Below the pieces are notes generated by a model. The model had not been told where the DNA came from, ran no database searches, and saw nothing but the letters and a program-made list of their open reading frames with translations. From positions 9,272 to 73,271 of the forward strand of contig JABHBK010000069.1 in NCBI GenBank assembly GCA_018673915.1: a stretch of DNA of 64,000 nucleotides. Direction: 5' to 3'. Made by a program: the position numbers and the translations under genes. How positions within the stretch are numbered: position 1 is the stretch's first letter; every line of letters starts with the position of its first letter. This DNA comes from Nitrospina sp. Its GTDB lineage: Bacteria; Nitrospinota; Nitrospinia; Nitrospinales; VA-1. Below are positions 18,376 to 32,937 of this stretch, piece by piece.

Positions 18376-19777
18376 GCCGGTTGATCAATCCTTTCCATAT
18401 GGTCATGACAAGAATTTTCAAATCAAACAATAAAGACCAGTTTTTAATATAATATAAGTCACACTCAATCCTTTTTTCCAAAGAGGTATTTCCCCTCCAA
18501 CCATTTACTTGAGCCCACCCAGTTAACCCCGCCTTCATCTTCAATCGCAACATATAAAAAGGAATGGATTTCTTGAACTCTTCTACAAACACTGGTCGTT
18601 CAGGACGTGGACCCACCAAGCTCATTTGCCCGCTAAAAACATTAAATAATTGAGGCAGTTCATCCAGGCTAGTCTGCCTTAAAATCGTACCAACTCGGGT
18701 GCGCCTGTCATCATTCTCCTTCGCCCAAACTGGTCCAGTTTGATTCTCCGCCTCAGTGGTCATGGATCGAAACTTGTACATCCAGAAAACGTTTCGGTCT
18801 AACCCCATGCGCTCTTGCCGATAAAATAAGGGTCCTTGAGATTCCAGTTTAAGAATTATTCCAATGAGAACCATAAGAGGAAAAGCAATAATAAGGGCAA
18901 ACCCAGAAAGAACAATATCTGAAAACCGCTTCAATACAATATTCCATCCATAAAGGGGAGATTCAAATAGGTTGATCAGTGGCATCCCATCAAGCTCTTC
19001 TACCCCTGAATGCAAATCCATATATCGTAAAAGATCGGGCACTAGTTTGATGTCAACGGTTTCCTCTCCTAAAGAGGTTAAAATTTCTTCGAGTTGATCA
19101 TGAGCCTTATACGGCAACGCGATGAAAAGCTGGTCCACTTCGTTTTCTCGAATAACCCGAACCACATCTTGATAAGCACCCAAAACTGTATGGCCCCTAA
19201 ATAACTTTCCCACATTTTCGGGAGAATCGGATAAATAGCCCACTACTGAAAAACCAATTTCGGGATTTTTCACCAACCTTTCCACAACCTTCTGCCCAAG
19301 CTCTTCTGCCCCGATTACCAAAACTTTTTTTAGGTTAACCCCCTTGGCATGCATCTCTTTAATCAACAGACCCGCTAGTTGATGGGAAAAAAACAACATA
19401 ATAGTAGCGATTAGCCAGAAGTATACGACCATGATCCGGGAAAAGGTTAAGTCACGGATAAAAAACGTAGCTGCCATGAGCATAAGAACCGACAAAGTGG
19501 CTAATTTCAAAGCCCCTAAGGCCTGACTCATCTTCGATTGTTTACTGGACTGATAAGCAAACCCAAGCACCCGACCATTAATAAGAAATACTATCCAAAT
19601 AGGCGCTATTGCATACAAGTACATATTTTCACTCGGTATAGGACCGGAGGGAGCAATTAGTTGTAATTTAAACCGGATTAAATAAGCAAACAACCAGGAG
19701 AGAGTTACTGCCAAAGCATCAAGAAAAAATAAGACCGTCAGGTAAAGTTGACCATGTTTCCGAATCATATATGACAA
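18365..19777 (-). CDS. wcaJ: Undecaprenyl-phosphate glucose phosphotransferase
   Basis: KFRSM, SLDELPQLFNV, GPRPERP, GLTGWAQVNGWRG. Confidence 0.88.
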   Translation of the reverse strand: MSYMIRKHGQLYLTVLFFLDALAVTLSWLFAYLIRFKLQLIAPSGPIPSENMYLYAIAPIWIVFLINGRVLGFAYQSSKQSKMSQALGALKLATLSVLMLMAATFFIRDLTFSRIMVVYFWLIATIMLFFSHQLAGLLIKEMHAKGVNLKKVLVIGAEELGQKVVERLVKNPEIGFSVVGYLSDSPENVGKLFRGHTVLGAYQDVVRVIRENEVDQLFIALPYKAHDQLEEILTSLGEETVDIKLVPDLLRYMDLHSGVEELDGMPLINLFESPLYGWNIVLKRFSDIVLSGFALIIAFPLMVLIGIILKLESQGPLFYRQERMGLDRNVFWMYKFRSMTTEAENQTGPVWAKENDDRRTRVGTILRQTSLDELPQLFNVFSGQMSLVGPRPERPVFVEEFKKSIPFYMLRLKMKAGLTGWAQVNGWRGNTSLEKRIECDLYYIKNWSLLFDLKILVMTIWKGLINRHAY

Positions 19778-20061
19778 AAGAAATCGCTTCCTTCTCTTTA
19801 TATCTTTCCTGCGAGAATTTTAATTTCCCGAAGAAATAAAGAATTCTGGACAAATATTATTTGAAAAACATTAGGGTTTTATCTGAAGAAATGGAGCCTT
19901 AAACCACCAGAGCCGACAGGGATTTCAGATCAGGCGATCAGGAATTTGATATCAGGAAATGCCTGCATACAAAGACCTGTATGGAAGGAGAATAACCCAA
20001 AATTTAACTGGCTTCAACCGATAAGTGGGGAAGTGAAGGCAAAAGGTTGCAAAGCGGCTAA

Positions 20062-21057
20062 CTACTGAATCTGGTTTAATTGGGCAAGAATTTTCCCTCG
20101 TACCTCGGCAGGAGGATTTTTTTTCAACGCACCCTCTAGAACTTCAATTGCACGGCTGGTTTCACCTTTTTTAGAATAGGTCATACCAAGCATATATCGG
20201 GAATCGTGCGCCTTATTCCCTCTTGGAAATTTATTTAAAACTGTCTCAAACTGAAGAACCGCATCATCATACATTTCCAATGCCACATAATTGGTGCCAA
20301 TCCAAAAAGCAATATTATCTTTAAGTTTATTGGGAGGATTACTCAGGTCCAGATTTTGAAACAACAAAATTGACTCATCATAATTCCTATTCCGATAAGC
20401 AGCTAGAGCTTTGTCATATTCGGGAGGATTCTTTGCCGATGCTCTGCGAGTCCTCTTTTTATGAACAGGCCTTGCTTGGGATTTTTGCATTTTTATTCGG
20501 GCAATCTCTTCATTGAGCCGGGCCATCTGCGCCTTTAAATCTTCAACCTCAGGCTCCAGAAAGTCAGACGAGTCTGTAACCGATGAGACGCCACTCTCCA
20601 GCCTTTCACTTGCTGCATTAATTTTAGGTTCCAATGTACTCAACACCTCTTCAAGCTCTCGAACCTTGCTAATCAATGCCTCTTGCTGGCTTTGCAGACT
20701 TTCCACATCCCCCTTCAGCTCGCTCCTATCAGTACGTTGATCAACACTGGCAAAGCCATCCGGATCCCCATCTATAAAACCATCTTCCCCTTCATCTATT
20801 TCTGAGAAACCTTTATCCTCGGAAAAGAAATCATCTTCATCGGAACCGCCTCTATCATCATCCCTACCACGACGCCTATCATCACGAGCCATTTCTCTAT
20901 CATCTTCAAATGGGAAATCTTCTTCAAAAGCCAGGTCATCATCATCTTCAGCCATCCAGGGAAGATAGCTACAACCATTAAAAAACAATGAAAAAAGAAG
21001 TACCAATGCAAGAATGAGGCGGGTGAAAATGTGGGTGGGCGACATGTTTAACTCCAT
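20062..21057 (-). CDS. CpoB/YbgF-like lipoprotein with acidic N-terminal region, coiled coil and TPR
   Basis: Lipobox FFNGC, D/E/F-rich tract, heptad coiled coil, C-terminal Y..AL..Y / FWIG / KFP.G.K TPRs. Confidence 0.7.
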   Translation of the reverse strand: MELNMSPTHIFTRLILALVLLFSLFFNGCSYLPWMAEDDDDLAFEEDFPFEDDREMARDDRRRGRDDDRGGSDEDDFFSEDKGFSEIDEGEDGFIDGDPDGFASVDQRTDRSELKGDVESLQSQQEALISKVRELEEVLSTLEPKINAASERLESGVSSVTDSSDFLEPEVEDLKAQMARLNEEIARIKMQKSQARPVHKKRTRRASAKNPPEYDKALAAYRNRNYDESILLFQNLDLSNPPNKLKDNIAFWIGTNYVALEMYDDAVLQFETVLNKFPRGNKAHDSRYMLGMTYSKKGETSRAIEVLEGALKKNPPAEVRGKILAQLNQIQ

Positions 21058-21180
21058 CGTATTTCAATAAGGATAAATTACCCCTTAATAATCAATGAAT
21101 TATATGGTTTTGACCTAAAAATGTCAACCTCATATATGAATGATTTGTTCTTCTCAAAATATTCTATTATTTATCGAATT

Positions 21181-22371
21181 TTAAAGGGATTTCATTAATT
21201 TTTTATTATTCATTTCTTTAGAAAATCCCACCCGGTTTAATAATACTGTCTCCTCCAAAACCTTAGCGGCTTCTTCGACTTCCGCCAATGTATTACCCCA
21301 ACCAAAACTGAAACGAATGGATGAGTTGATTTTATCCAGGGGTATTCCCATTGCTGTTAACACCGGTGAAGGCAACCCACTTCCCGAACTGCACGCTGAT
21401 CCCGTAGAAACTGCCACTCCAGCCATATCTAAACCAATCAGTAACGTATCCCCTTCAACCTCATCGAATCCCAGGTTCAGAGTATTAGGGAGCCTGTTTT
21501 CCAAATCACCAAAGATCTCCACCCCTGAAATCTGATTAGAGATCAATTTATAAAAATGCTCTCGCAAAGAAGAAAGGCTTGAAGATTCTTGGGAAACTAA
21601 ATGTTTCTGTGCAAGCTCGCAAGCTTTACCAAAACCCGCTATTCCCGCCACATTTTCGGTCCCTCCTCTTCTCTTTTTCTCCTGACCTCCCCCACAAATG
21701 GGTGAAAATAATTCAGGGCTTCCCCTCTTTAAATAGAGGGCTCCAACCCCCTTAGGACCATTCAACTTATGCGCTGAAATGGATAACATGTCGATCGGAG
21801 CATCTTGAACCTCAACCTGAATTTTACCTACACTTTGCACCGCATCGGTGTGAAACAACACTCCCTTTTTCCTTGCGATCTCTCCAATTTTTTCAATGTC
21901 CTGTAATACCCCCGTCTCACTGTTGGCATGTTGCAAGGAAAGCAGCAAAGTCGACTCTGTCAAGCAATCTTCCAAAGCATCCAAGTCAATTCGCCCCAAC
22001 TTATCGACCTTTAGCAGATCCACATTAAAGCCCAGGTTCTCCAATTGCCTGCAGGGATTCAAAATCGATGGGTGTTCCACTTGACTGGTAACGATATGCC
22101 CCCCACCTTTCCCCAATCCTAAAGCCACTCCTAATAAGGCAAAATTATTTGCCTCTGTCCCTCCACTAGTAAAAACTATTTCCGATGGAGAAGCTCCAAT
22201 AAGGTTGGCCACATGTTCCCGAGACTCATCCACTAAAACGCGGGCTGACCTCCCTATAGAGTGAACACTGGAAGGATTCCCAACCTGTTTCTCCAAAACA
22301 TTCGTTACGATATCCAGAACTTCTGGAGCAACCGGCGTGGTAGCATTATGATCAAGATAAATTTTATTCAA
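21181..22371 (-). CDS. iscS: Cysteine desulfurase (IscS/NifS)
   Basis: IYLDHNATT, HTDAVQ, SAHKLNGPKG, STGSACSSG. Confidence 0.92.
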   Translation of the reverse strand: MNKIYLDHNATTPVAPEVLDIVTNVLEKQVGNPSSVHSIGRSARVLVDESREHVANLIGASPSEIVFTSGGTEANNFALLGVALGLGKGGGHIVTSQVEHPSILNPCRQLENLGFNVDLLKVDKLGRIDLDALEDCLTESTLLLSLQHANSETGVLQDIEKIGEIARKKGVLFHTDAVQSVGKIQVEVQDAPIDMLSISAHKLNGPKGVGALYLKRGSPELFSPICGGGQEKKRRGGTENVAGIAGFGKACELAQKHLVSQESSSLSSLREHFYKLISNQISGVEIFGDLENRLPNTLNLGFDEVEGDTLLIGLDMAGVAVSTGSACSSGSGLPSPVLTAMGIPLDKINSSIRFSFGWGNTLAEVEEAAKVLEETVLLNRVGFSKEMNNKKLMKSL

Positions 22372-22473
22372 TTTAAAATACCTACAAGAATTATCCGCTA
22401 AACCAAGGTGCGAAGAAAGGGTTCGGGTTTAATCAGGAAGCAACAGAGCCTGTGTTTCGCCAATTATCTAAAT

Positions 22474-23205
22474 TCAGGATTTAGACTGGCCGGAGACCCG
22501 TTTTATATTGGAAGGATCCATTGCAACTGGTTTTGCAGGTGCGGGGTCAATTCCCTTCTGCCCCAGGGTTTCCTTTAGTTGGCGGATTTCTTTTTCCATT
22601 CGAGGCAAACTATCCAACATGCACTCAATTGCCCGAGCCACTGGATCAGGAAAGGATTCCAGACCCTCATTGTCTTCCATATCAGAAGAAATACCGGAAA
22701 AAACCACCCTTCCAGGAACTCCTATAACGGTGGAATATTCTGGAACATCTTGGAGAACTACCGACCCGGAACCTATTTTCGTGTTACGACCCACATGGAT
22801 AGGACCCAAAACCTTTGCCCCAGCACCAATGACAACATCGTTAGCGATGGTAGGGTGACGTTTGACTTTTTTGGTTGCAAATCCCCCTAAGGTCACTCCT
22901 TGATAGATAAATACATTATCACCTACCTCTGCAGTTTCTCCAATCACAACGCCCATTCCATGATCGATAAAAAAACGATGCCCAATTTTTGCAGCGGGAT
23001 GAATCTCAATTCCCGTTATCCATCTTGAAAATTGGGATAAGGCCCTGGCTAAAAACTTGAATCCCAAATTCCACAACCCATGAGCCAAGCGATAGCCGAT
23101 CAGAGCATGAACTCCAGGATACAAAATCACTACCTCAAGGAAGTTCCTCGCGGCAGGATCTTTTTCTAAAGCAACCCGGACATCTTCTTTAATTAGACGG
23201 AGCAT
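22474..23205 (-). CDS. cysE: Serine O-acetyltransferase
   Basis: [32 protein letters not shown]. Start placed at ATG 23205; the ORF track starts at 23256. Confidence 0.95.
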
Positions 23206-23398
23206 AGATTTGGGCTTGGGGTATAAGTTATTGTTTATTGTAATATTATACTCCACTCAACACCAAACAAAAAGCCCCCTTTCCAAATAGTTCCCTTCAG
23301 CACCCTTTCTAAAGCTGAGAAAGGCAATGCCCCTTTCAACCCGGGTATTTCTATATTTACTAAAAAGAGCTCTGTAGAGAGGGCCAACAGATGCAGAT

Positions 23399-24076
23399 CT
23401 ACTTATACATGAGGGAAACTAATTGAGAGCGAGCGTGAACTCGAAACTTGGAATATATCTTCTTAAGATGGTCTTTGACGGTGTGATGACTCAAGTCTAA
23501 CATTTTGGCTATCTCCTTGTCGCTCAGGCCTTCACAAATCAGACGGGCAACATCAGCTTCCCGGCTTGTCAATCCGGCTTCCTGCATTAAGTATTTTGTA
23601 TGCTCTTCAAGTTTGACTTCACCTTCCACCTGATGGGATCGAACCCTTCCCGAGTCTTGAGATTCAAGGATTTTTAAATTTTCCCTTGCCCGGAAGGAAA
23701 GTGTTTTCATGATAGCCATCAAGACATCAGGACTCGCAGATAATTTAGTCTGAAATTGTTCCTGTGTAATTTCCAACAACAGGCTGGGTACCGCTGATTT
23801 AACGGTGGCAGAACGGGGTTGGGATTCAATCAATGCCATCTCTCCCAGATAATCTCCTTTTGTTCTACGCGCAATCTCTATTCCATTTTTGGAAACTATC
23901 AACTCCCCGGAAAGTATGACATACATGGAGCGACCCTCTTCCCCATCTGAAAACAAAACCGCTCCTACATCCAGATCCCTCAACTGACATTCAGAGGCCA
24001 AGCATTCCAGTGTATCCGTGGAAGCCTTTGTTAAAAAATCAATTTTTCTCAGAAAATCTAAATTTTTATTTTCCAC
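23399..24076 (-). CDS. Cyclic-nucleotide-binding domain fused to LuxR-type HTH regulator
   Basis: GDYLGEMALIESQPRSATV phosphate-binding cassette; LTSREADV...GLSDKEIA..L.LS..TVK.H...IY.K. Confidence 0.9.
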   Translation of the reverse strand: MENKNLDFLRKIDFLTKASTDTLECLASECQLRDLDVGAVLFSDGEEGRSMYVILSGELIVSKNGIEIARRTKGDYLGEMALIESQPRSATVKSAVPSLLLEITQEQFQTKLSASPDVLMAIMKTLSFRARENLKILESQDSGRVRSHQVEGEVKLEEHTKYLMQEAGLTSREADVARLICEGLSDKEIAKMLDLSHHTVKDHLKKIYSKFRVHARSQLVSLMYK

Positions 24077-24169: not shown

Positions 24170-25654
24170 TTAATAAAAAAAATTGAATTTCAATGTTAGA
24201 AGATTTTGTTTGGAGTCAACCGATACTAAATTTGAATTGTTGAGGTTGTATTGAAAGTCGAGATCAATGTTCAGGAACTCTAAAACCGGATGAGTAATTG
24301 TGAATTGGACTGTTTGTTTTTCATCCCGCCTATTCTTTCCAATACTTTCCGTAACATTTTCATAAAGCAATAGGTTGTACAAGTAGGAAAGCTGAAATTT
24401 CGTTTTATCTGGACCAGAGAAATTATACCCCGCGCTGATGAGATTCCCGACATAGTCAAATTCACTTCCCTTCGTATTTTCATCATAATACCTGTAAGTC
24501 ACGAATGCGTACGCCTTGCTCTCCGCGAAAAACAGGTATTGGTCAAAACCGATGGAAACATTGAGGGCATTACGCAATTCGTCCCCTAAAAAGGTGGTCT
24601 CTGAAATGACTGCACTAATATTGGTGTAGAGTTCGGGTTGAAGCGAGAAACCAATACGCGGGACAACACTGTGAGAGGTCAGGTAATCCTTTTCATCTAA
24701 GAAACTGTAGTTATAGTAGTAGTCTAGTCCGGCGTCCCAGTTTTTATCATTATGAGTCCCCCCCAGCGAAAAGGTGTTGGATATATAATTAAACTCAGCC
24801 GCGTCTGTCCAGGCATTCTGGTAATAATCATATCCCAATCGGAGCTCGACAATAGGGGTAGAATAGAATTTGTAACCTGTCGACAACTCAAAGGTAGCCG
24901 CCGTATCGGATTGGTTGGAAACGATATCCTGGCTGGTCACTGACACGTTATCGTCATATTGAAATCCTTGCTTGGCTAAGAACCACCAGTTTTTTTTGCT
25001 TTTACTTGTTTTCTCTCCTAATTCATTCAACAGGATTTCAACCTGATCGGCGGTTTCCGATTCCGGATTCTTTTCCAATGCCATGTTCAGCGCAAACTTA
25101 GCGTCTTCTTTCTGCCCTAATTCAAAATAGGCCAGCCCAATTTGAAACAGGGCTAATTGCTCAAGGTCAGGGTCCAAACTTAATACGGTTTGAAAATAAA
25201 TGAGAGATTCCTTGTATTGTTCTTTTTGCTGCAAGGTAAAACCTAGATATAAATAGGCGGAGGCATCTTGAGGATCTAGATCAATGGATTTTTTCAATGC
25301 CTCGAGAGCCAGGTCACTGGATTCAAGATTAAAATAAACGATACCAAGATTACGGTGGGCACCACTATATGCGGGGTCCAGCTCAAGGACCTTTTTAAAA
25401 GGTGCAACCGCTTCAGTATTTTTTTCAGCTTTAAGGAAGGTCAGACCCCGATAATAATGCGCCTCAATATTGGAAGGATCTTTGGCCAAAACCTTTGAGA
25501 ATTCACTGAGGGCCTGGTCAAACTTAGCCTCATTATAAAATTGCAAACCACGGATTATAGAGGGGGCGCTGGCTTCCTGGGCTTGAATATTATTCAGGCA
25601 GAAGAACAGTGAAAGAAATAGAAATGAGAAGAATTTCTGCACAATAAAAGGCAA
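24170..25654 (-). CDS. TPR-repeat outer-membrane beta-barrel protein (Slam/DUF560-like architecture)
   Basis: Signal peptide, about 5 TPRs, GFQYDDNV barrel start, amphipathic strands, C-terminal aromatic beta-signal LKFNFFY. Confidence 0.8.
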   Translation of the reverse strand: MPFIVQKFFSFLFLSLFFCLNNIQAQEASAPSIIRGLQFYNEAKFDQALSEFSKVLAKDPSNIEAHYYRGLTFLKAEKNTEAVAPFKKVLELDPAYSGAHRNLGIVYFNLESSDLALEALKKSIDLDPQDASAYLYLGFTLQQKEQYKESLIYFQTVLSLDPDLEQLALFQIGLAYFELGQKEDAKFALNMALEKNPESETADQVEILLNELGEKTSKSKKNWWFLAKQGFQYDDNVSVTSQDIVSNQSDTAATFELSTGYKFYSTPIVELRLGYDYYQNAWTDAAEFNYISNTFSLGGTHNDKNWDAGLDYYYNYSFLDEKDYLTSHSVVPRIGFSLQPELYTNISAVISETTFLGDELRNALNVSIGFDQYLFFAESKAYAFVTYRYYDENTKGSEFDYVGNLISAGYNFSGPDKTKFQLSYLYNLLLYENVTESIGKNRRDEKQTVQFTITHPVLEFLNIDLDFQYNLNNSNLVSVDSKQNLLTLKFNFFY

Positions 25655-25887: not shown

Positions 25888-27342
25888 CTAACTGGGAGGT
25901 CCGCCTCCTTTACCAGGGGGAGGTCCACCGCCGCCACCGGGATTACCACCACCGGGATTACCACGCGGTATAGTGCTGGTATCAGGCCTGCCCGGCCTTA
26001 TGCCTACAGGTGGTTTGTGTCCACCTCCTGGGCCTCTTGCAATTCTTTCTCTTACTGGGGGTGGATTTATTCCACCTTTAGGTCCTTTTAGTCCTGATCC
26101 TTTGGGTCCTTTGGGTCCTTTGGCGGTGACAAGTTTACCGCCGCCGCCAGTACCTTTTCCTCCTCTTTCAATTCTATCTGAGGCGTTTCCAAGAAATGAA
26201 CCCGTGGTCGCAACATTTGCTGTTTTTCTTGTAACGGTGGTGGAGGTTTTACCTTTCTTTGCTGGAGGCCCCTTTTGTTTATCTGCCTGCTTCATCAAAC
26301 CAGCCGGCAAGTTCCCTGCCTCAGCCATTTTCAGGAGCCCTGGGGGGAAAGTTCCATTTTTGGCCATCGCCAGTAATCCAGGTGGAAGCGCATCGTTCGC
26401 TGCCAAGTCAACTATAAGCGGAGGAAGATTCTGAATATCGGACACCACACCATTTTTCAAAACACCCAGCATTTTCCCCTTGGTAAGTACCGATTGCGGT
26501 CCCAGGCCTCCGCCGGAAAGCTTCGGGGCAGTATCGATACTACCTTCAATATTAATGAAAGTAGTCTTGCCATTTGGCTGAACCGTCACCACAAATTCTG
26601 TTCCCCGCACTCCCGCCACAGCGGTGGGCGTCACTACCTTGAAGGCCGAACCCTTCGATTTACCTTTAGTAACCACAAACCGCACAGTTCCCAAAGCTAC
26701 ATTCACCACAGTTTGCCGCAGATCTTTTTCGGGATCATATATATGCTTTTTAATATTGACGGAAGCATTTTCTCCTAGGGTCAATGAACTCTTATCATCA
26801 AAGGTAAAAGTGGCTTTTGATTCCGGCTTGGTTTTTATATGGTCATTCATAAAAACCGGGGAAGCCAACTTAACATCTGTTGAAGTATTCTGCCCTTTAT
26901 GAGTCTGAAGAATCTCCCCTTCAACCCCCGTGGTGATGCCAATGTCGGCTGATTTGACTATTCCCTGCTGTTTCAAAAATTGTTTTTGCTCAAATAAGTT
27001 TTTGCCTGGGGGTTCGCCGGATAATGCGTAGGTAACCCGAACAAATTCCTGATCGGTCAACGCGCCTTTTGCGTCCTTTTCACTCAGAACTTTAAATCCT
27101 CGAATTTTTAAAATTTTGGCAGTTTTAGCATACAAGTCCTCTTGCGATAACTCCGCATGATTTTTAGGAAGGAGGGGGTGATCAGGTTGATTTTGGGCAA
27201 CAATCGCCACAAACTCAGCCCTGCTGACCTGCGAGTTATTTTGGGTAGCTGACACGATAAACAGAAAAGAAAAACCTATTGCTACCAACAGGAAAAAGCG
27301 TGTCAACAACACTTTATTTTTGGTGAAAAATTTCGAACTCAT
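25888..27342 (-). CDS. FecR-domain protein with SLH-like N-terminus, 13-aa repeats and Gly/Pro/Lys tail
   Basis: D.IKT..ES.A...F.D.S.LTLGEN and VVTPTAVAGVRGTEF (FecR); N-terminal TM/signal segment. Confidence 0.85.
   Translation of the reverse strand: MSSKFFTKNKVLLTRFFLLVAIGFSFLFIVSATQNNSQVSRAEFVAIVAQNQPDHPLLPKNHAELSQEDLYAKTAKILKIRGFKVLSEKDAKGALTDQEFVRVTYALSGEPPGKNLFEQKQFLKQQGIVKSADIGITTGVEGEILQTHKGQNTSTDVKLASPVFMNDHIKTKPESKATFTFDDKSSLTLGENASVNIKKHIYDPEKDLRQTVVNVALGTVRFVVTKGKSKGSAFKVVTPTAVAGVRGTEFVVTVQPNGKTTFINIEGSIDTAPKLSGGGLGPQSVLTKGKMLGVLKNGVVSDIQNLPPLIVDLAANDALPPGLLAMAKNGTFPPGLLKMAEAGNLPAGLMKQADKQKGPPAKKGKTSTTVTRKTANVATTGSFLGNASDRIERGGKGTGGGGKLVTAKGPKGPKGSGLKGPKGGINPPPVRERIARGPGGGHKPPVGIRPGRPDTSTIPRGNPGGGNPGGGGGPPPGKGGGPPS
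26272..26427 (-). repeat. Four tandem 13-aa (39-nt) PPGL-type repeats in the FecR protein
   Basis: LPPLIVDLAANDA / LPPGLLAMAKNGT / FPPGLLKMAEAGN / LPAGLMKQADKQK. Confidence 0.75.
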
Positions 27343-27365: not shown

Positions 27366-29495
27366 TCACAAATCTTTTTGAAGTAAAAGTTTCAGTTTTT
27401 CCGGTGACAACGGTTTACCAACAAAATAACCTTGAGCCCAGTCACATTCAGTATGCTCCAATAATTTCTTTTGTTCAATCGTTTCCACTCCCTTTGCAAC
27501 CGTCTTCAAGTTCAAGCTTTTCCCAATGCCTATAATCGTGTTAGTGATGGTGGAATTAATCCCCGCAGAGAGACCTCGAATCAGTTTAGGATCAATATTC
27601 AAGGTATTTAAAGGGATACGGGCGAGATTATTTAATGAAGACAGTCCCATGCCAAAATTATCCAAAGCCAGCTTGGAGCCAAAGTCGTGAAGATCCATTA
27701 AGTTTTTATGCGCTGGAGTTTGTTGCAAAGCTATTTCAGGTATTTCAAACTCAAACATATTCGGTTCCAGACTAAAGTTACTCAGGCAACTCTCAATTTT
27801 TTCCGCCAACTTTCCCTGAAGCAACTGGGTTTGACTGAGGTTGATGGAAACAGGTACCAAAGGGATCCCTTCCTGTTTCCAGGCTTGAATTTGTTTACAT
27901 ACGGACTGCATCACCCAATCTCCTATCGAAACTATCAAACCGCTGTCCTCGGCTACAGGAAGAAATTCAGCAGGAAGCACCAATCCTCTGTCAGGATCCT
28001 TCATCCTTAAAAAGACTTCAAGCCTTTGGTATTCACCGGTTTTGATATCAATTTTTGGTTGATAGTCTAATTGGAAATCATCATTCTCAAGCGTTCGCCC
28101 AATAAGGGTCTTCAACTCTAATCGGTTATGGGCCAAAGAAAGCATTTTAGGATCATGCACAAAATACGAGTTTTTTCCCTGCTCTTTCGCACGGTACATC
28201 GCCGTATCCGCACATTTAAACAGCGTTTCTACATCCTTGCCATCGTTGGGATAAAGTGCGATTCCTATACTAAAGCTTGAATAAATTTCATGCGTATCAA
28301 TTTTGAATACAGGTTTGAGAGCTGAGATAATCCTTTCTGCCAACCGGGTGGAGTAGTTATCATCTTTCAAGCCAGTTAAAAGAATTACAAACTCATCGCC
28401 CCCAATCCTCGCCACCGAATCCTCACCACGCAATAAACTTGTCAAACGTTTGGCCACCTCTTTTAGCAACTCATCTCCAATAGAATGACCCAGAGAGTCG
28501 TTCACGGATTTGAAATCATCCATATCCAGAAACAATAAGGCAAAGTTTTGCTCATTCCGTTCTGCATGGGCAAGTGCCAAGGTGATGCGGTCATTGATCA
28601 TGTTGCGGTTGGGCAGCCCGGTCAAAGAATCGAAAAACGCCATGCGCTTTATTTTTGATTCCAACAGACGCGACTCTGACAAATCCTGAACTACGGCCAA
28701 CAAAGCCATCGTTTTGCTAAAAAGGACTAACTTTAATTTAACCTGTACCGGATAAACCGTTCCATCCTTTCTCTTTTGCAGAGCTTCAAAAACTTGAAGT
28801 AGTTTTTTTCCCGTTCGAAGCGGTTCTACAAACAACTCAAACTCTAAGAGAGACTGGTCTTCCCAAAATTCGTATAACGCTTTGCTACAAATCTGAGTTT
28901 TGCTGTAACCCAGGCTTCGGGAAGCAGCCGCGTTGGTTTGGGTAATCTTGTAGTTTTCAGTATCTAGAATGTAAGTTTCGTTGCTGGTGCCATCGAGTAT
29001 CTGTGAAAATTTCTCAGCATTATCTTCTGCCAAGGTCAATTCCCCCTTCATCTCGTCCATGACATCTAAATCTTTTCGGGACCTTACTGAAAGGGTTTTG
29101 AGAAGAGCAAACAGAGCTTGAGCTTGAAGATCAAATTCTTTATGAAATCTTTCTGCGGTAATTTCCAGCAATTGTGTTTGTGTTTCTGCTCGAATGGATG
29201 CAGACCGGGGCTCAGATTCTATCAAGCCCATTTCCCCGATGTATTCACTGGGTTTTCTTCTTGCGATCACTTTATTTTTTTTATATACCAGCAATTCCCC
29301 GGAAAGAATGATGTACATGGAGTTGGAAACATCCCCTTCTTCAAATAGCACTTCAAAAGGAGAGAGAGAAATTACCTTGCAAGAACGGGCCAGTTTTTCC
29401 AGAGTCTCATCAGAAAAAAAGCCGAGAAAATCGACGCCTCTTAACTGCTCCAATATTTTTACTTCATCCATTGCTAAGGTCATAACTTGATTCAC
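27366..29495 (-). CDS. cNMP-PAS-GGDEF-EAL(degenerate) protein
   Basis: GEMGLIESEPRSAS cassette, PAS (RKDGTVYPV), RGEDSVARIGGDEF, EAL-like domain with EVF/DNFGMG/AKGVE. Confidence 0.92.
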   Translation of the reverse strand: MNQVMTLAMDEVKILEQLRGVDFLGFFSDETLEKLARSCKVISLSPFEVLFEEGDVSNSMYIILSGELLVYKKNKVIARRKPSEYIGEMGLIESEPRSASIRAETQTQLLEITAERFHKEFDLQAQALFALLKTLSVRSRKDLDVMDEMKGELTLAEDNAEKFSQILDGTSNETYILDTENYKITQTNAAASRSLGYSKTQICSKALYEFWEDQSLLEFELFVEPLRTGKKLLQVFEALQKRKDGTVYPVQVKLKLVLFSKTMALLAVVQDLSESRLLESKIKRMAFFDSLTGLPNRNMINDRITLALAHAERNEQNFALLFLDMDDFKSVNDSLGHSIGDELLKEVAKRLTSLLRGEDSVARIGGDEFVILLTGLKDDNYSTRLAERIISALKPVFKIDTHEIYSSFSIGIALYPNDGKDVETLFKCADTAMYRAKEQGKNSYFVHDPKMLSLAHNRLELKTLIGRTLENDDFQLDYQPKIDIKTGEYQRLEVFLRMKDPDRGLVLPAEFLPVAEDSGLIVSIGDWVMQSVCKQIQAWKQEGIPLVPVSINLSQTQLLQGKLAEKIESCLSNFSLEPNMFEFEIPEIALQQTPAHKNLMDLHDFGSKLALDNFGMGLSSLNNLARIPLNTLNIDPKLIRGLSAGINSTITNTIIGIGKSLNLKTVAKGVETIEQKKLLEHTECDWAQGYFVGKPLSPEKLKLLLQKDL

Positions 29496-29792
29496 CTGGC
29501 TCTTGCTCCCTCTAACACAACTCTTTAACCTCTATGTTCTTATTGTTAAGCAAGATCGAATAATTTAAAACCCCCATAATCAGGGTATACATAAAAACCG
29601 ACCATATCCCCATACCAATAATCATTGTAATGCGCTACTTTATAAAGAAAAAATATACCACCCATCAAACTTTTGTACCAATTTTATTACATTTCTTAGA
29701 GCCACTATTGGAGTTCCTTGCCCTTGTTCAAATCAAAAACTTATTCAATAATGTGAAATAGGATTACACATACTCAAAAGGCATCTAATTAA

Positions 29793-32066
29793 TTGATCTT
29801 TTTAGCCAAAAAATATTCCTCTATTTCCTGCGGGTTACTGGTCACCGCACTTTGCTTGTTTATCTACAATCAATCCCCCTCTTCAATGGAGCCATTGGAG
29901 AATATTGTTCAAAACACCCACTTCAAATTGCGCGGTCCCCTCTCCCCCAACTCTGATGTCGTCATTGCAAAAATTGATGAGAAGAGTCTGGACACACTGG
30001 GTCGTTGGCCCTGGCCAAGACAAACTATGGCGAAGCTTGTTCAAAGACTTCATGAATATGAAGCAGAAGTAATTGGATTCGATATTATTTTTTCTTCGCC
30101 CCAGATTAATTCCGACCATGAGGCCTTAATAAAATTACAAAATATAATTAGTCCTACTCAGAACCCTGAAGCCGTAGAATATTTAAACCAATTATTGCGG
30201 GAAACAAATGCCGATATCCAGTTTTCCCAAGCTCTATCCAAAGGTTCCAAGTCTGTGTTGGGTTACTTCTTCCACTTTTCACCCGAGGGGCTGGAACATT
30301 TAACCCCTACCCAGCGACACCTATATTTTGAAGATATAAAAACATCCCGGTTCAATGGGTTTCTTCGTTCTAGTGAAAACCTCAAACTATCTAACCTGAC
30401 TTTCCCCACTGCATTTGCAGTCGAGTCTAATATTTCATCCATTTCGCGAACAGCCAGCCGATCCGGTTATCTGAGTTTTGATCTTGAATCCGACGGATCG
30501 GTAAAACAACTTCCACTCATTGTCCGATATGTTGACAATGGGAAGGATCATTATTTCCCTCCATTTTCTCTAAGGATTCTCGAACAATATCTACAAGGCA
30601 CCCTTCTCTTCAGGGTCAATGAATTGGGGATGGAAGAAGTCATTCTGGATAACGATAATCCTATTGTTATCCCAACTAACTCAAAAGGAGAAATGGAGGT
30701 CAATTATTTGGGCCCGCGGAAAACATTCCCTGGAATTTCCATTAGCGATCTTTTAGATAAGAATTTAAGTAGTGCAATCAAAGAACGAGTACGGAATAAA
30801 ATAGTGCTAATAGGTGCCACAGCAACTGCTCTTGAAGATTTAAAGCCGACCCCTTTTGATCCGGCCTTACCAGGAGTAGAAATTCACGCAACGATTATCG
30901 ACAATATTTTAAGCCATCGTTTTCTCACTAAGCCTTCCTGGACAGCGGTTGTCGATTCTCTATATTTATTGTTGATAGGAGTAGTCTTAACTGTGGTGTA
31001 CTCCCGCATCAAACCTCTGATGAGTCTCATGGTCTGGTCAGTATGTGTCTGCGCTTCTTTTTATTTAAGCCATTGGCTATTCATTAACAAGGGATTCTGG
31101 TTAACGGATGTCTATCCATTAATAGAGAATACTGGGATTGCCGCCTTGATCATGCTGGATCGTTTTGTTAAAGAGGAAAAGCAAAAACTTTTTATCAAAA
31201 AGGTTTTTGGTCAATATCTCTCACCCCGGGTCGTAAAAGAACTGATCAATGATCCTTCAAAACTAAAGCTGGGAGGAGAACAAAAAGAACTTACGGCTCT
31301 ATTCACCGATCTGGAAGGATTCACCACTTTCTCTGAAAAGCTTGGCGCTACAGAACTGGTTGACCTTTTAAATACCTACCTCACCGAAATGACGGACATC
31401 CTTCTGCAATACGATGGCACCTTGGATAGATATGATGGCGATGCAATTAAAGCGTTTTTTGGGGCTCCGATTTATTTCGATGATCATGCAAAACGGGCCT
31501 GCTGGGTATGTATAGATATGCAAAACAAGCTCAAAGATATGCGTGTGAAATTTAAAGAAGAAGGCAAGCCAGAATTACTCATGCGGGTAGGCCTCAATAC
31601 CGGATCAATGGTAATCGGAAACATGGGCTCAACCACCCGCATGATGTATGGAATGAACGGCGACTCGGTTAATCTATGCGCCCGTCTCGAAGGAGCCAAC
31701 AAACAATACGGAACTTACTCTCTGATCAGCGAGTTCACTTACCAGGCCGCCAAAGAATTCATCGAGGTCCGGAAATTAGATATTATTCGTGTCGTAGGCC
31801 GTGCAACACCTATTAATATTTATGAGCTTTTAGGAAAACGGGGAGAGATAGATGATCTCCTAAAAAAAGCTTTACCCGATTATAACCAGGGCTTGAAAAG
31901 TTATCAAAATCGCGAATGGACCGAAGCCAAAAGATATTTTGAAAATGCCTTGAAAATACGTCCCGAAGATGGCCCCTCAAAAATTTATTTGAAGAGATGC
32001 GAAAATTTCATCCTTCAACCTCCCGCCAAAGACTGGGATGGCGTTTTCAATCTCAGCACAAAATAA
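29793..32066 (+). CDS. CHASE2-domain class III nucleotide cyclase with C-terminal TPR
   Basis: IDEKSL..LGRWPWPR, GFDIIF, PGVEIHA (CHASE2); 3 TMs; FTDLEGFT, GDA, GLNTG, GDSVNLCARLEG; TPR tail. Confidence 0.93.
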   Translation: MIFLAKKYSSISCGLLVTALCLFIYNQSPSSMEPLENIVQNTHFKLRGPLSPNSDVVIAKIDEKSLDTLGRWPWPRQTMAKLVQRLHEYEAEVIGFDIIFSSPQINSDHEALIKLQNIISPTQNPEAVEYLNQLLRETNADIQFSQALSKGSKSVLGYFFHFSPEGLEHLTPTQRHLYFEDIKTSRFNGFLRSSENLKLSNLTFPTAFAVESNISSISRTASRSGYLSFDLESDGSVKQLPLIVRYVDNGKDHYFPPFSLRILEQYLQGTLLFRVNELGMEEVILDNDNPIVIPTNSKGEMEVNYLGPRKTFPGISISDLLDKNLSSAIKERVRNKIVLIGATATALEDLKPTPFDPALPGVEIHATIIDNILSHRFLTKPSWTAVVDSLYLLLIGVVLTVVYSRIKPLMSLMVWSVCVCASFYLSHWLFINKGFWLTDVYPLIENTGIAALIMLDRFVKEEKQKLFIKKVFGQYLSPRVVKELINDPSKLKLGGEQKELTALFTDLEGFTTFSEKLGATELVDLLNTYLTEMTDILLQYDGTLDRYDGDAIKAFFGAPIYFDDHAKRACWVCIDMQNKLKDMRVKFKEEGKPELLMRVGLNTGSMVIGNMGSTTRMMYGMNGDSVNLCARLEGANKQYGTYSLISEFTYQAAKEFIEVRKLDIIRVVGRATPINIYELLGKRGEIDDLLKKALPDYNQGLKSYQNREWTEAKRYFENALKIRPEDGPSKIYLKRCENFILQPPAKDWDGVFNLSTK

Positions 32067-32076
32067 TACACAAATT

Positions 32077-32937
32077 TTAATACAGGCATTCAGGTTGTGG
32101 TGAAGTCAGATAACTATATCTTGGCATAAAAAAACGTTTAAGCGCATCTCTGATCCAATTATTTGCTTCAATGGCCTTATCAACTTCGTCTTGACCCATT
32201 TCTTTTTTGATATTTTTCCCGCCAAAATAAAAGCTGACTAACTTTGTTTTACTGTTTTCAATGGCTTTGTAAACATTCTTTAAGTTGTGCAATTTATCAT
32301 CGACAAAGATAATTTTTTTGTAGTTTAGATCGTTATACCTTAAAAATTCCGTCAAAGATTTTCCTTTATCGGCACCCGCAACCATCATCAACCCTGCCCT
32401 GTAAACAATTTCAGCTTTTCTATTTTCAGCATGAATGATAGCAGACCAATCATTCTGAGAAGGGAGTCGATCATTTCTAGAAAAAAAATATTTATTTCGC
32501 AACAACTCTCTTTCAGTTGCAGATCGCTGTTTATTTGACCTTGCTGTGAGCAGCATCACATGGTTATTTTGAATTGCATTAAACCTGTCATTCAAATTGG
32601 GTTCGGTAGGAACCATGGTGCCAATTTCGTAGAGCATGCTTGCCACATCAAACCTGCAAGGAAGTAATTGGTGCTTCGTTTGGTTATTTTTGTACCACTG
32701 AACCCATCTTTCACTTCCTAATAATTGTTCTGAAGTTAGCAGAGTGTCATCAATATCAAACACTATTAGAAGTTCATTTTGTTTTGTTTGGGAATTTTTT
32801 ATTTCACTAAAAACAGGATTGAAGTTATCTACCGCTATGGGGTTAAAATCTGTTTTTTGGTTTGATAAACTAACGGTTCCAGCGCAGGAGACCAGAAAAG
32901 TTATAGAAAAAATAAGGAAATAGATTAGTCGATTCAC
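32077..32937 (-). CDS. DUF2608-like HAD-superfamily lipoprotein
   Basis: Lipobox LVSC, VFDIDDTLL, LTAR, KG, IIFVDD. Confidence 0.75.
   Translation of the reverse strand: MNRLIYFLIFSITFLVSCAGTVSLSNQKTDFNPIAVDNFNPVFSEIKNSQTKQNELLIVFDIDDTLLTSEQLLGSERWVQWYKNNQTKHQLLPCRFDVASMLYEIGTMVPTEPNLNDRFNAIQNNHVMLLTARSNKQRSATERELLRNKYFFSRNDRLPSQNDWSAIIHAENRKAEIVYRAGLMMVAGADKGKSLTEFLRYNDLNYKKIIFVDDKLHNLKNVYKAIENSKTKLVSFYFGGKNIKKEMGQDEVDKAIEANNWIRDALKRFFMPRYSYLTSPQPECLY

What the first reader, a model, noticed from the sequence alone, without database searches (positions are those of the whole stretch)
31290..31700. Cyclase keeps catalytic residues but has swapped its base-specifying residues - may not make cAMP
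Seen: the metal-binding Asps (FTDLEGF, GD) and the transition-state N/R (VNLCAR) are intact. However, the usual DKY(I/E)GDAIMA reads DRYDGDAIKA (AGA at 31428-30), and the usual R.DYT.IGD reads RMMYGMNGD (GGA at 31650-52). Known: adenylyl cyclases use Lys plus Asp/Thr at these two positions, guanylyl cyclases use Glu plus Cys or a small residue, and pyrimidine cyclases (Pycsar PycC) alter residues around the same GD motif. Inference: several coordinated substitutions (K>R, M>K, D>M, T>G, hydrophobic>N) around the base pocket suggest a different product (cGMP, cUMP/cCMP or another) used for ordinary signalling. The sequence alone cannot say which.
Basis: partly seen in the sequence, partly recalled or inferred. 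Interest (0 to 1): 0.85.

Follow-up and report, generated by a model that had tools for sequence, protein, structure and literature searches.

The report
Receptor cyclase with a remodelled base pocket
A membrane sensor enzyme that makes a cyclic-nucleotide signal has an intact catalytic core but a rebuilt, conserved pocket for the nucleotide base and sits beside a protein that reads such signals, so its product needs a simple biochemical test.

Summary
ORF 29793-32066 (+) encodes a 757-aa CHASE2 receptor fused to a class III cyclase. The catalytic residues D506, D550, N627 and R631 are intact. R546 and G620 replace the usual Lys and Thr.

This is not drift. The gene belongs to one clade, seen only in Nitrospina-like genomes, whose pocket reads [K/R]-Y-D-G-D-A-I-K plus Y-G-[M/I]-N-G-D. 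Canonical Lys/Thr paralogues in the same genomes read K-[F/Y]-E-G-D-A-I-I plus Y-T-M-M-G-D. Gly, Asp, Lys and Asn are almost fixed across the clade, and Arg marks a subclade.

Of 37 clade members examined in genomes, 29 lie beside a gene for a cyclic-nucleotide-binding protein. Here that gene is a divergent CNBD-PAS-GGDEF-EAL gene at 27366-29495. None of 44 canonical paralogues has such a neighbour.

The product cannot be read from sequence. Two published Lys/Gly enzymes prefer ATP, and the Crp-like partners keep the adenine-contact residues of CRP, so cAMP is the single most likely product (about 0.5). The extra polar changes, an Arg at the same register as in a cCMP cyclase, and the receptor linkage keep cGMP or another nucleotide open (about 0.35-0.4 in total).

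I rate it a new variant of a known kind, of moderate interest.

The parts
29793..32066 (+). Gene for the 757-aa CHASE2-receptor class III nucleotidyl cyclase (TTG start; stop codon included)
   Evidence: ORF list. Pfam CHASE2 plus Guanylate_cyc. Identical 757-aa cluster P0002.
29844..30980 (+). CHASE2 sensor domain (residues 18-396), presumed periplasmic
   Evidence: Pfam PF05226, E 1.8e-56. A strongly hydrophobic stretch at 381-410 follows it. Topology is inferred.
31284..31808 (+). Class III cyclase catalytic domain (residues 498-672)
   Evidence: Pfam PF00211, 67 bits. PDB sequence hits: Cya2-derived 6fht 1.6e-37, CyaB 3r5g 8.4e-36, Cya2 2w01 1.8e-32. AF2 model pLDDT 93.2. Foldseek top hits 6fht, 2w01, 3r5g.
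31308..31310 (+). D506, first metal-binding Asp (FTDLEGF)
   Evidence: Invariant in 120 of 120 homologues and 81 of 81 genome loci.
31428..31430 (+). R546 (AGA) at the substrate-specifying Lys position (-4 from D550)
   Evidence: R in 35 and K in 85 of 120 homologues. R in 6 of the 150 nearest 50% representatives, 7 of 151 with the window.
31434..31436 (+). D548 (-2), where canonical relatives carry Glu
   Evidence: D in 105 of 108 Gly-type homologues and Q in 3. D in 2 and E in 108 of 151 sequences: nearest representatives plus the window.
31440..31442 (+). D550, second metal-binding Asp (GD)
   Evidence: Invariant. D506 to D550 is 44 residues, the same spacing as in EaPycC and AnPycC.
31449..31451 (+). 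K553 (+3), where canonical relatives carry Ile or Met. I infer it is the cross-strand neighbour of R546
   Evidence: K in 104 of 108 Gly-type homologues. K in 2 of 151 sequences: nearest representatives plus the window. Strands 543-548 and 551-556 in the model.
31650..31652 (+). G620 (GGA) at the second substrate-specifying position (Asp/Thr in adenylyl cyclases)
   Evidence: G in 108 of 120 homologues. Aligns with Gly562 of Cya2 (YGVVG) in the PDB alignment.
31656..31658 (+). N622 (two residues after G620), where canonical relatives carry Met
   Evidence: N in 103 and S in 5 of 108 Gly-type homologues. N in 2 of 151 sequences: nearest representatives plus the window.
31671..31685 (+). N627 and R631, the transition-state residues (VNLCAR)
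   Evidence: Invariant in 120 of 120 and 81 of 81.
31881..31970 (+). TPR-like repeat in the C-terminal tail (residues 697-726)
   Evidence: Pfam TPR_2, E 4.2e-4, below the curated cut-off. Helices at model residues 219-272. The tail is conserved in homologues.
27366..29495 (-). Divergently transcribed partner gene: CNBD-PAS-GGDEF-EAL, 709 aa, the candidate receptor of the cyclase's product
   Evidence: Pfam cNMP_binding 43-120, PAS, GGDEF, EAL. The adjacency is conserved in relatives.
25888..27342 (-). FecR-domain protein, 484 aa, downstream of the partner gene on the same strand
   Evidence: Pfam FecR. Homologues lie beside CHASE2 cyclases of both pocket types in other genomes (coordinates compared).
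24170..25654 (-). TPR-repeat protein, 494 aa, same strand
   Evidence: Pfam TPR families. Membership in the system is inferred from position only.
23399..24076 (-). Second cyclic-nucleotide-binding protein: CNBD plus GerE/LuxR helix-turn-helix, 225 aa
   Evidence: Pfam cNMP_binding and GerE. A homologue stands at a matching position on the contig that carries the cyclase in G061. Membership is inferred from position only.

Best explanation
The gene encodes a catalytically competent, membrane-bound receptor cyclase. It has an N-terminal CHASE2 sensor, a membrane-spanning region (one strongly hydrophobic stretch scored at 381-410), a short transducer element (FGQY), a class III catalytic domain that should work as a homodimer, and a TPR-like tail. 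It belongs to a single-origin clade found only in Nitrospina-like genomes. In this clade the base pocket was rebuilt stepwise from a canonical Lys/Thr (class IIIb) ancestor: first a basic residue at +3, then Thr>Gly, Met>Asn and Glu>Asp, and finally Lys>Arg in the subclade that holds this gene. The enzyme converts a periplasmic signal into a 3',5'-cyclic mononucleotide. That nucleotide is read by the CNBD-PAS-GGDEF-EAL protein encoded divergently next door and so couples to c-di-GMP turnover. Polysaccharide genes lie further down that strand. Shown: domain content, intact catalytic residues, clade-wide conservation of the pocket, single origin, and gene linkage. Inferred: homodimer, topology, the signalling relay, and the product. 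The single most likely product is still cAMP, with the pocket changes tuning affinity, selectivity or regulation. I give this about even odds.
For: Enzyme and fold.

Catalytic residues: D, D, N, R are present in 120 of 120 homologues and 81 of 81 genome loci.

Clade:
- With the pocket columns removed, 36 Gly-type and 41 Lys/Thr full-length proteins separate on one branch with SH-aLRT 100 (4 of 81 rows shorter than 700 aa were dropped).
- A second tree of 90 rows gives 96 for the Gly clade. Its sister is a Lys/Thr group of 4 rows, 3 of which already carry Arg at +3.

Linkage:
- A CNBD gene lies within 600 bp of 12 of 15 R/G loci and 17 of 22 K/G loci, against 0 of 44 K/T loci.
- The partner's N-terminal identity to the window protein falls from 86% to about 30% while it keeps its position.

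For cAMP:
- Cya2 E488K (Lys/Gly) is ATP-specific (PMC5995499 passages).
- Ma1120 D157G (Lys/Gly) has kcat/Km 1.98 for ATP against 0.006 for GTP, x10^6 per s per M (PMC4215837 table).
- 6 of 6 Crp-like partners of K/G members have Thr-Thr at CRP T127/S128, and their binding cassettes keep the Glu and Arg. PMC11224242 (passages) calls S128 the adenine-recognition position.
- Lys to Arg keeps the charge.
- CHASE2 cyclases of Sinorhizobium meliloti signal with cAMP to a Crp-family regulator (PMC13001267 passages).
Against: - No enzyme with Arg/Gly, or with the added Asp(-2), Lys(+3) and Asn, has been assayed. I found none in 7 literature searches.
- The two published Lys/Gly enzymes keep hydrophobic residues where this clade has Lys and Asn. 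Among 151 sequences (150 nearest 50% representatives plus the window), the +3 position is I, M, V or L in 144 and the position two after Thr is M, I, L or V in 147. The analogy is therefore incomplete.
- The same genomes keep canonical Lys/Thr CHASE2 paralogues.
- Only the remodelled clade is linked to receptors, which fits a separate signal.
- The cCMP cyclase EaPycC uses Arg at the same -4 register and a polar residue at -2.
- Two R/G genomes (G064, G069) lack the adjacent partner, and no partner orthologue was found in them with this query. The pairing is therefore not obligatory.
- All linkage counts come from one clade, so they amount to one evolutionary event retained, not many independent ones.
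Confidence: 0.5

Rival explanations
1. The clade, or at least the Arg/Gly subclade, makes cGMP. Gly620 opens the pocket as in the guanylyl cyclase Cya2. Arg546 and Lys553 would read O6/N7 of guanine, and Asp548 and Asn622 would read N1/N2. The adjacent CNBD-GGDEF-EAL protein would be a cGMP receptor, as in Xanthomonas XC_0250/XC_0249.
For: - The closest solved structures are Cya2 and its derivative, which share the CHASE2 architecture and the Gly.
- In Xanthomonas a class III guanylyl cyclase is encoded next to a CNBD-GGDEF protein that binds cGMP at 0.29 uM against 17.9 uM for cAMP (PMC3770947 passages).
- Only the remodelled clade is linked to CNBD genes: 29 of 37 loci against 0 of 44.
- The suggested residue roles are my inference from general chemistry, not a tool result.
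Against: - The Glu that defines the characterised guanylyl cyclases listed in PMC6005667 and PMC4215837 is absent.
- The Tyr of Cya2 (VNLTYR), reported to enhance guanylyl cyclase activity, is Ala630 here.
- Lys/Gly enzymes prefer ATP.
- The Crp-like partners of K/G members look cAMP-type.
Confidence: 0.2
2. The enzyme makes a pyrimidine cyclic nucleotide (cCMP or cUMP) or is promiscuous, and uses it for ordinary signalling rather than phage defence.
For: - EaPycC (cCMP) has metal Asp residues D102 and D146 and base-selecting residues F100, R142 and Q144. These correspond to Phe at -2 of the first Asp, Arg at -4 and a polar residue at -2 of the second Asp.
- The window protein has F504, R546 and D548 at the same spacing of 44 (PMC11224242 passages).
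- AnPycC (cUMP) uses positions -2 and +3, both of which are changed here.
Against: - Not a defence locus: the neighbours are signalling and polysaccharide genes, and no PycTM or PycTIR effector is present.
- The PADLOC PycC model PDLC00734 scores 64-68 bits here but 90 and 83 bits for the canonical paralogues, so the match is generic homology.
- Gly620 enlarges the pocket rather than narrowing it.
- The K/T paralogues also have Phe and an acidic residue at these positions.
- The register is inferred from residue numbers only. The paper's supplementary figures could not be seen.
Confidence: 0.15
3. The pocket changes have made the domain a poor or inactive enzyme that acts mainly as a nucleotide-binding or scaffolding module.
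For: Loss of both canonical base contacts often lowers activity in mutants. Single and double Ma1120 mutants lose 25-94% of adenylyl cyclase activity, depending on the mutant and the pH.
Against: - All four catalytic residues are invariant in 120 of 120 and 81 of 81 sequences, over divergence down to about 60% identity.
- The new pocket residues are themselves nearly fixed. This indicates selection on a working site.
Confidence: 0.05

Closest known systems
Cya2 of Synechocystis PCC 6803 (CHASE2-regulated guanylyl cyclase; PDB 2w01; E488K adenylyl cyclase variant in 6fht)
   Same: It has the same architecture: CHASE2, membrane region, transducer element, class III domain and a C-terminal extension. 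It is the best sequence and fold match. It carries Gly at the second specificity position.
   Different: Cya2 has Glu488 where this protein has Arg546. It has Tyr in VNLTYR where this protein has Ala630. It has hydrophobic residues at -2, +3 and two after the Gly (M, L, V) where this clade has Asp, Lys and Asn (alignment).
Canonical class IIIb (Lys/Thr) CHASE2 adenylyl cyclases, including the paralogue in the same genome (L001) and P. aeruginosa CyaB (3r5g)
   Same: The domains and tail are the same. Identity to the own-genome paralogue is 57% over the last 288 residues. The catalytic residues are identical. FecR-domain genes lie nearby in both types.
   Different: The canonical pocket is K-E-I/M plus T-M, against R-D-K plus G-N here. 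No CNBD gene lies beside any of 44 canonical loci.
Xanthomonas campestris XC_0250 / XC_0249 (guanylyl cyclase beside a CNBD-GGDEF cGMP receptor)
   Same: A class III cyclase with a TPR-containing C-terminal part is encoded next to a CNBD protein that controls c-di-GMP (PMC3770947 abstract and passages).
   Different: XC_0250 is soluble and lacks the transition-state Asn and Arg (L157, A161), whereas this protein keeps both. XC_0249 has no PAS or EAL domain. The guanine-binding N145/E146 pair has no counterpart here: the aligned positions read Asp-Leu.
Pycsar cytidylate cyclase EaPycC (clade E)
   Same: Arg stands four residues before the second metal Asp and a polar residue stands two before it, with the same 44-residue Asp-to-Asp spacing.
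   Different: EaPycC is a soluble defence enzyme with a PycTM or PycTIR effector. This protein is a membrane receptor in a signalling locus. PADLOC PycC models score lower for it than for ordinary paralogues.
Bdellovibrio Bd1971 (cAMP-sensing CNBD-EAL phosphodiesterase)
   Same: This comparison concerns the partner gene: a CNBD fused to an EAL domain, so that a cyclic mononucleotide controls c-di-GMP hydrolysis (PDB hits 6hq2-6hq7; PMC6717892 title and abstract from the search listing).
   Different: The partner here also carries PAS and GGDEF domains and is encoded beside its presumed cyclase.
Sinorhizobium meliloti CyaD1/CyaD2/CyaK with Clr
   Same: These are CHASE2 cyclases that signal to a Crp-family regulator (PMC13001267 passages), like the K/G members that sit beside a 228-aa Crp-like gene.
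   Different: Their product is reported as cAMP. I did not examine their pocket residues. That cyaD1 lies next to clr is my recollection, not a tool result.

Membership tests
Class III nucleotidyl cyclase (Pfam PF00211) | Profile match above the curated cut-off, and the fold | tested here: met
   67 bits against 21.9. PDB sequence hits down to 1.6e-37. AF2 pLDDT 93.2 and Foldseek TM-score to Cya2 and CyaB chains of 0.86-0.90, normalised by target.
Class III nucleotidyl cyclase (Pfam PF00211) | Two metal-binding Asp residues plus the transition-state Asn and Arg | tested here: met
   D506, D550, N627 and R631. Invariant in 120 of 120 and 81 of 81 relatives.
Adenylyl cyclase by the specificity-pair rule (Lys plus Asp/Thr) | Lys at -4 of the second metal Asp, and Asp or Thr before the GD of strand 5 | tested here: not met
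   R546 and G620. This lowers the claim 'is a canonical adenylyl cyclase', not the claim 'makes cAMP', because Lys/Gly mutants stay ATP-selective.
Class IIIb subclass | Thr replaces the substrate-binding Asp | tested here: not met
   Gly620. The ancestor and paralogues are Thr-type. Subclass definition from PMC2613629 passages.
Guanylyl cyclase by the specificity-pair rule (Glu plus Cys/Ser/Gly and others) | Glu at the first position | tested here: not met
   Arg546. Lys in the rest of the clade.
Guanylyl cyclase by the specificity-pair rule (Glu plus Cys/Ser/Gly and others) | A small residue (Gly in Cya2) at the second position | tested here: met
   G620 aligns with Gly562 of Cya2 (PMC6005667 table).
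Pycsar PycC | Cyclase encoded with a PycTM or PycTIR effector in a defence locus | tested here: not met
   The neighbours are CNBD-PAS-GGDEF-EAL, a DUF2608/HAD-type protein and ScpA, with FecR, TPR and CNBD-GerE genes further along the minus strand. PADLOC PycC scores are lower than for the canonical paralogues.
Pycsar PycC | Product is cCMP or cUMP | not testable with these tools
   Needs an enzyme assay.
Cyclic mononucleotide to c-di-GMP relay (XC_0250/XC_0249 type) | Cyclase gene adjacent to a gene for a CNBD fused to a c-di-GMP enzyme | tested here: met
   Window: 298 bp between divergent starts. 21 of 37 clade loci have a CNBD-PAS-GGDEF(-EAL) gene within 600 bp upstream.
Cyclic mononucleotide to c-di-GMP relay (XC_0250/XC_0249 type) | The CNBD binds the cyclase's product and changes c-di-GMP synthesis or hydrolysis | not testable with these tools
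   The phosphate-binding cassette GEMGLIESEPRSA is intact. Binding and regulation need experiments.

The most novel reading that the evidence does not exclude
A clade of CHASE2 receptor cyclases restricted to Nitrospina-like bacteria has evolved a fourth kind of base pocket. Arg or Lys, Asp and Lys sit on the beta2-beta3 hairpin, and Gly and Asn sit on strand 5. The enzymes would make a nucleotide other than cAMP (cGMP, or a pyrimidine cyclic nucleotide used for housekeeping signalling). This would give the cell a private second messenger, read by dedicated CNBD-PAS-GGDEF-EAL and Crp-like receptors beside an ordinary cAMP system run by the Lys/Thr paralogues.
Probability: 0.3. Interest if true: 0.8.

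Novelty: new variant of a known kind. Interest (0 to 1): 0.5.

Why it matters
Product specificity of class III cyclases is routinely predicted from two residues. This clade breaks the rule at both positions and at three further pocket positions, yet stays under clear purifying selection.

It therefore offers a natural test of how far the two-residue rule holds. If the product is cAMP, the clade shows that the base pocket can be rebuilt almost entirely without changing the output, and that Lys/Gly and Arg/Gly should be read as adenylyl cyclases in annotation. If the product is not cAMP, it would be a new determinant set for cGMP or for a pyrimidine cyclic nucleotide outside phage defence, in abundant marine nitrite oxidisers.

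The conserved pairing with CNBD-PAS-GGDEF-EAL proteins also gives a ready cyclase-receptor pair for studying how cyclic mononucleotides couple to c-di-GMP.

Tried and rejected
- Strain-specific drift is rejected. The pocket is conserved in 108 of the 120 nearest clusters and has a single origin.
- A Pycsar defence cyclase is rejected on context and on PADLOC control scores.
- I tried to read the ligand from the partner's CNBD. The C-helix of the GGDEF-EAL partners reads Asp-Leu at CRP T127/S128, and the same R-x-R-x-[D/E]-L helix stands in several unlinked CNBD proteins of the own genome. It says nothing specific. Only the Crp-like partners aligned unambiguously with CRP.
- I looked in the divergent intergenic region 29496-29792 for a shared regulatory palindrome or clear promoters. 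There was one weak promoter-like site, no more than in shuffles, and no inverted repeat.
- Arg at the Lys position is not unique. 6 of the 150 nearest representatives also have it, among them a separate group of four long CHASE2 cyclases (RYEGDAIR) that keep Thr. Their taxonomy could not be obtained.
- CO2 or bicarbonate regulation as the reason for the changes was considered. Class IIIb enzymes are CO2-responsive, but the role of the Lys is disputed (PMC2613629 passages). I left this as a sub-case of the cAMP reading.
- A statistical test of the linkage across genomes was not attempted. The Gly-type clade has one origin, so there is only one independent contrast.
- I did not use complex prediction. 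A homodimer of a class III cyclase is textbook, and the tool does not score ligands.
- Papers and supplements: the original Cya2 structure paper (PMC2572937) is not held, so Cya2 details come from later papers. Supplementary figures of PMC11224242 showing the PycC pockets could not be seen, so the register mapping rests on residue numbers.
Full report
**What is there.** The finding lies in ORF 29793-32066 (+), which encodes 757 aa.
- Pfam finds a CHASE2 sensor (residues 18-396, E 1.8e-56) and a class III cyclase domain (498-672, 67 bits against a cut-off of 21.9). It also finds a sub-threshold TPR repeat at 697-726.
- The quoted motifs and codons are exact. FTDLEGF holds D506. DRYDGDAIKA holds R546 (AGA, 31428-30), D548, D550 and K553. 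RMMYGMNGDSVNLCAR holds G620 (GGA, 31650-52), N622, N627 and R631.
- The nearest solved proteins by sequence are the Cya2-derived chimera 6fht (1.6e-37), P. aeruginosa CyaB (8.4e-36) and Cya2 itself (1.8e-32).
- In those alignments R546 pairs with Glu488 of Cya2 (Lys in the chimera and in CyaB). G620 pairs with the Gly of Cya2 (Thr in CyaB).
- An AlphaFold2 model of residues 470-757 is confident (mean pLDDT 93.2, pTM 0.91). Its best structural matches are the same three entries.

**Is it drift?** No.
- The assembly that holds the window (3.15 Mb, 75 contigs, 92% complete) has three class III cyclases.
- The other two are canonical. One is a 742-aa CHASE2 paralogue reading DKFEGDAIIA / RMDYTMMGD. 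The other is a 636-aa enzyme reading DKYIGDAIMA / LEYTCIGD.
- Among the 120 closest 90%-identity clusters, 35 are R/G (71-100% identical in the catalytic domain), 73 are K/G (63-73%) and 12 are K/T (61-68%). The sources that name them call them Nitrospina, Nitrospinaceae or Nitrospinae.
- All 120 keep the four catalytic residues.
- Within the 108 Gly-type proteins, Asp at -2 occurs in 105, Lys at +3 in 104, and Asn two residues after the Gly in 103.
- The three proteins that lack Lys at +3 (Val instead) are the same three that have Gln for Asp at -2, and they form one small clade. This fits an Asp-Lys interaction, but it is a single event.

**Origin.** I fetched 80 genome loci from the phylum search and added the window. 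Aligned columns classed them as 15 R/G, 22 K/G and 44 K/T.
- A tree of the 77 full-length proteins, built without the pocket columns, puts the 36 Gly-type and 41 Lys/Thr proteins on either side of one branch (SH-aLRT 100).
- An earlier tree of 90 database proteins gives 96 for the Gly clade. It places a small Lys/Thr group as its sister (85). Three of that group's four rows already have Arg at +3.
- The likely order is therefore a basic residue at +3, then Thr>Gly, Met>Asn and Glu>Asp, then Lys>Arg.
- Arg needs one or two changes on the trees.
- At least 31 of the 120 genomes of the phylum carry a Gly-type gene, in three families.
- Many of them also carry a Lys/Thr CHASE2 paralogue.

**How unusual is the pocket?** I compared 151 sequences: the 150 nearest representatives of 1.84 billion 50%-identity clusters, plus the window.
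- 142 are K/T.
- Only one representative (P0043) shares the Asp/Lys/Gly/Asn set.
- One representative is E/G, like Cya2.
- Arg at the Lys position occurs in six representatives. Four of them are long CHASE2 cyclases reading RYEGDAIR plus NFTM[Q/M]GD, which keep Thr.

**Do the changed positions line the base pocket?**
- In the model, residues 543-548 and 551-556 form two strands joined by the two-residue turn G549-D550. I infer that this places R546 opposite K553 and puts D548 on the same face. Coordinates could not be inspected.
- Residues 619-622 (YGMN) form the strand before the helix that carries N627 and R631.
- The paper on Pycsar cyclases reports metal Asp residues D102/D146 and base-selecting F100, R142 and Q144 for the cCMP enzyme EaPycC. 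For the cUMP enzyme AnPycC it reports D62/D106 with F60, K104 and F109 (PMC11224242 passages).
- The Asp-to-Asp spacing is 44 in both enzymes and also here (D506 to D550). By register, positions -4, -2 and +3 are pocket positions, and EaPycC has Arg at -4.
- This mapping rests on residue numbers only, because the supplementary figures were not available.

**Surroundings.** Divergently transcribed, 298 bp away, lies a 709-aa CNBD-PAS-GGDEF-EAL gene (27366-29495, minus strand).
- Downstream on that strand follow a FecR-domain protein, a TPR protein and a CNBD-GerE regulator. After them come a hexapeptide transferase, a class V aminotransferase, a TPR protein and a Bac_transf sugar transferase.
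- A CNBD gene lies within 600 bp of 12 of 15 R/G loci. Ten have the divergent CNBD-PAS-GGDEF-EAL gene. Two have an extra paralogue inserted.
- The three R/G misses are one contig that starts inside the cyclase gene, plus G064 and G069. In those two a FecR-domain gene abuts the cyclase and no partner orthologue was found with this query.
- A CNBD gene lies within 600 bp of 17 of 22 K/G loci. Nine have the divergent GGDEF-EAL type. Six have a convergent 228-aa Crp-like protein with a helix-turn-helix. Two are of other kinds.
- No CNBD gene lies beside any of the 44 K/T loci. Nine of those have less than 1 kb of upstream flank.
- The partner keeps its place while its N-terminal identity to the window protein falls from 86% to about 30%.
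- Because the clade has one origin, this is one linkage retained for a long time, not many independent events.
- FecR-domain genes accompany CHASE2 cyclases of both pocket types, so they belong to the sensor side and not to the pocket story.
- The own genome has 24 matches to the CNBD family but only 3 cyclases.

**What does the enzyme make?** Sequence cannot settle this.

Evidence for cAMP:
- The single change E488K turns Cya2 (Glu/Gly) into an ATP-specific enzyme with a Lys/Gly pair (PMC5995499 passages).
- Ma1120 D157G (Lys/Gly) has kcat/Km of 1.98 for ATP and 0.006 for GTP (x10^6 per s per M), more ATP-selective than the wild type at 1.25 and 0.11 (PMC4215837 table).
- The six Crp-like partners align unambiguously with E. 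coli CRP. All six have Thr-Thr at T127/S128, and their binding cassettes keep the Glu and Arg. S128 is described as the adenine-recognition position, replaced by Glu in the cGMP receptor XC_0249 and by Asn in the cUMP receptor PycTIR (PMC11224242 passages).
- CHASE2 cyclases of Sinorhizobium meliloti use cAMP with a Crp-family regulator (PMC13001267 passages).

Evidence against cAMP:
- Neither published Lys/Gly enzyme has the added Asp, Lys and Asn, which replace hydrophobic pocket residues.
- Nothing is known for Arg/Gly.
- The cells keep canonical Lys/Thr paralogues.
- Only the remodelled clade is tied to receptors.
- The Xanthomonas guanylyl cyclase XC_0250 is also encoded next to its CNBD-GGDEF receptor (PMC3770947 passages).
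- A cCMP cyclase uses Arg at the same register.

PADLOC's PycC models do match, but they score lower (64-68 bits) than for the canonical paralogues (90 and 83 bits). That match is generic homology.

My odds are cAMP about 0.5, cGMP 0.2, a pyrimidine or promiscuous product 0.15, and inactive 0.05. The remainder is undefined.

**Comparison and novelty.**
- It fails the specificity-pair definitions of adenylyl cyclase, of subclass IIIb and of guanylyl cyclase.
- It is not a Pycsar cyclase.
- Seven literature searches turned up no description of this clade, of an Arg/Gly pair, or of cyclic-nucleotide signalling in Nitrospina.
- The library lacks most subscription journals, and one key paper (PMC2572937) was not held.
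- I file it as a new variant of a known kind. The linkage to CNBD-PAS-GGDEF-EAL resembles known relays: XC_0249, and Bd1971 (PDB hits; listing).

**Limits.**
- The model's coordinates cannot be inspected, so pocket geometry is inferred from secondary structure and register.
- Only the top 80 cyclase matches were classified.

Noticed in passing
window 25888-27342 (-), and coordinates compared: A FecR-domain protein is encoded near CHASE2 cyclases of both pocket types in many genomes of the phylum (58 of 120 genomes have a match). In G064 and G069 it directly abuts the R/G cyclase with no CNBD gene between them. It may be an accessory of the CHASE2 sensor.
   Followed up: partly
own genome G000: There are 24 matches to the cyclic-nucleotide-binding family PF00027, 23 of them above the curated cut-off. 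Several lie in one ORF, so there are fewer proteins than matches. The genome has only 3 class III cyclase genes, so there are many more readers than writers of cyclic nucleotides.
   Followed up: partly
window 18365-24076 (-): On the partner gene's strand, after the FecR and TPR genes, lie a CNBD-GerE/LuxR regulator (23399-24076) and polysaccharide-type genes. These are a hexapeptide transferase at 22474-23256, a class V aminotransferase at 21181-22371 and a Bac_transf sugar transferase at 18365-19777. This hints that the signal controls an exopolysaccharide.
   Followed up: no
proteins P0156, P0203, P0224, P0251: A separate group of long (936-1045 aa) CHASE2 cyclases has Arg at the Lys position and Arg at +3 (RYEGDAIR), with Gln or Met two residues after a retained Thr (NFTM[Q/M]GD). 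This may be a parallel pocket remodelling. Their taxonomy is unknown.
   Followed up: partly
L042, L044, L045 (G099, G105, G098) and L037, L039 (G059, G060): Several R/G loci carry a second, more distant CNBD-PAS-GGDEF-EAL paralogue (34-47% identical in the CNBD). It lies either just downstream of the cyclase or between the cyclase and the orthologous partner. Its binding cassette reads [I/V]-R-S-A instead of P-R-S-A.
   Followed up: partly
G101:C9:20800-21635, G012:C1:244674-245177, G016:C4:259022-262376: Some partner-gene homologues beside the cyclase contain in-frame stop codons (TGA or TAA) or are split. They may be decaying copies or assembly errors.
   Followed up: no
window 32077-32937 (-): A DUF2608 / HAD-type acid-phosphatase-like gene (286 aa, hydrophobic N-terminus) lies between the cyclase and scpA. 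In three relatives (L035, L036, L040) a 262-264-aa ORF follows the cyclase directly, so this gene may be a local insertion. The identity of those ORFs was not checked.
   Followed up: no
window 27366-29495 (-), partner protein: By eye, the partner keeps GGDEF with an RxxD site five residues upstream. Its EAL domain reads EVFLR and DNFGMG instead of the usual EALxR and DDFG(T/A)G. Whether it mainly synthesises or hydrolyses c-di-GMP is unclear. The motifs are compared from memory.
   Followed up: no
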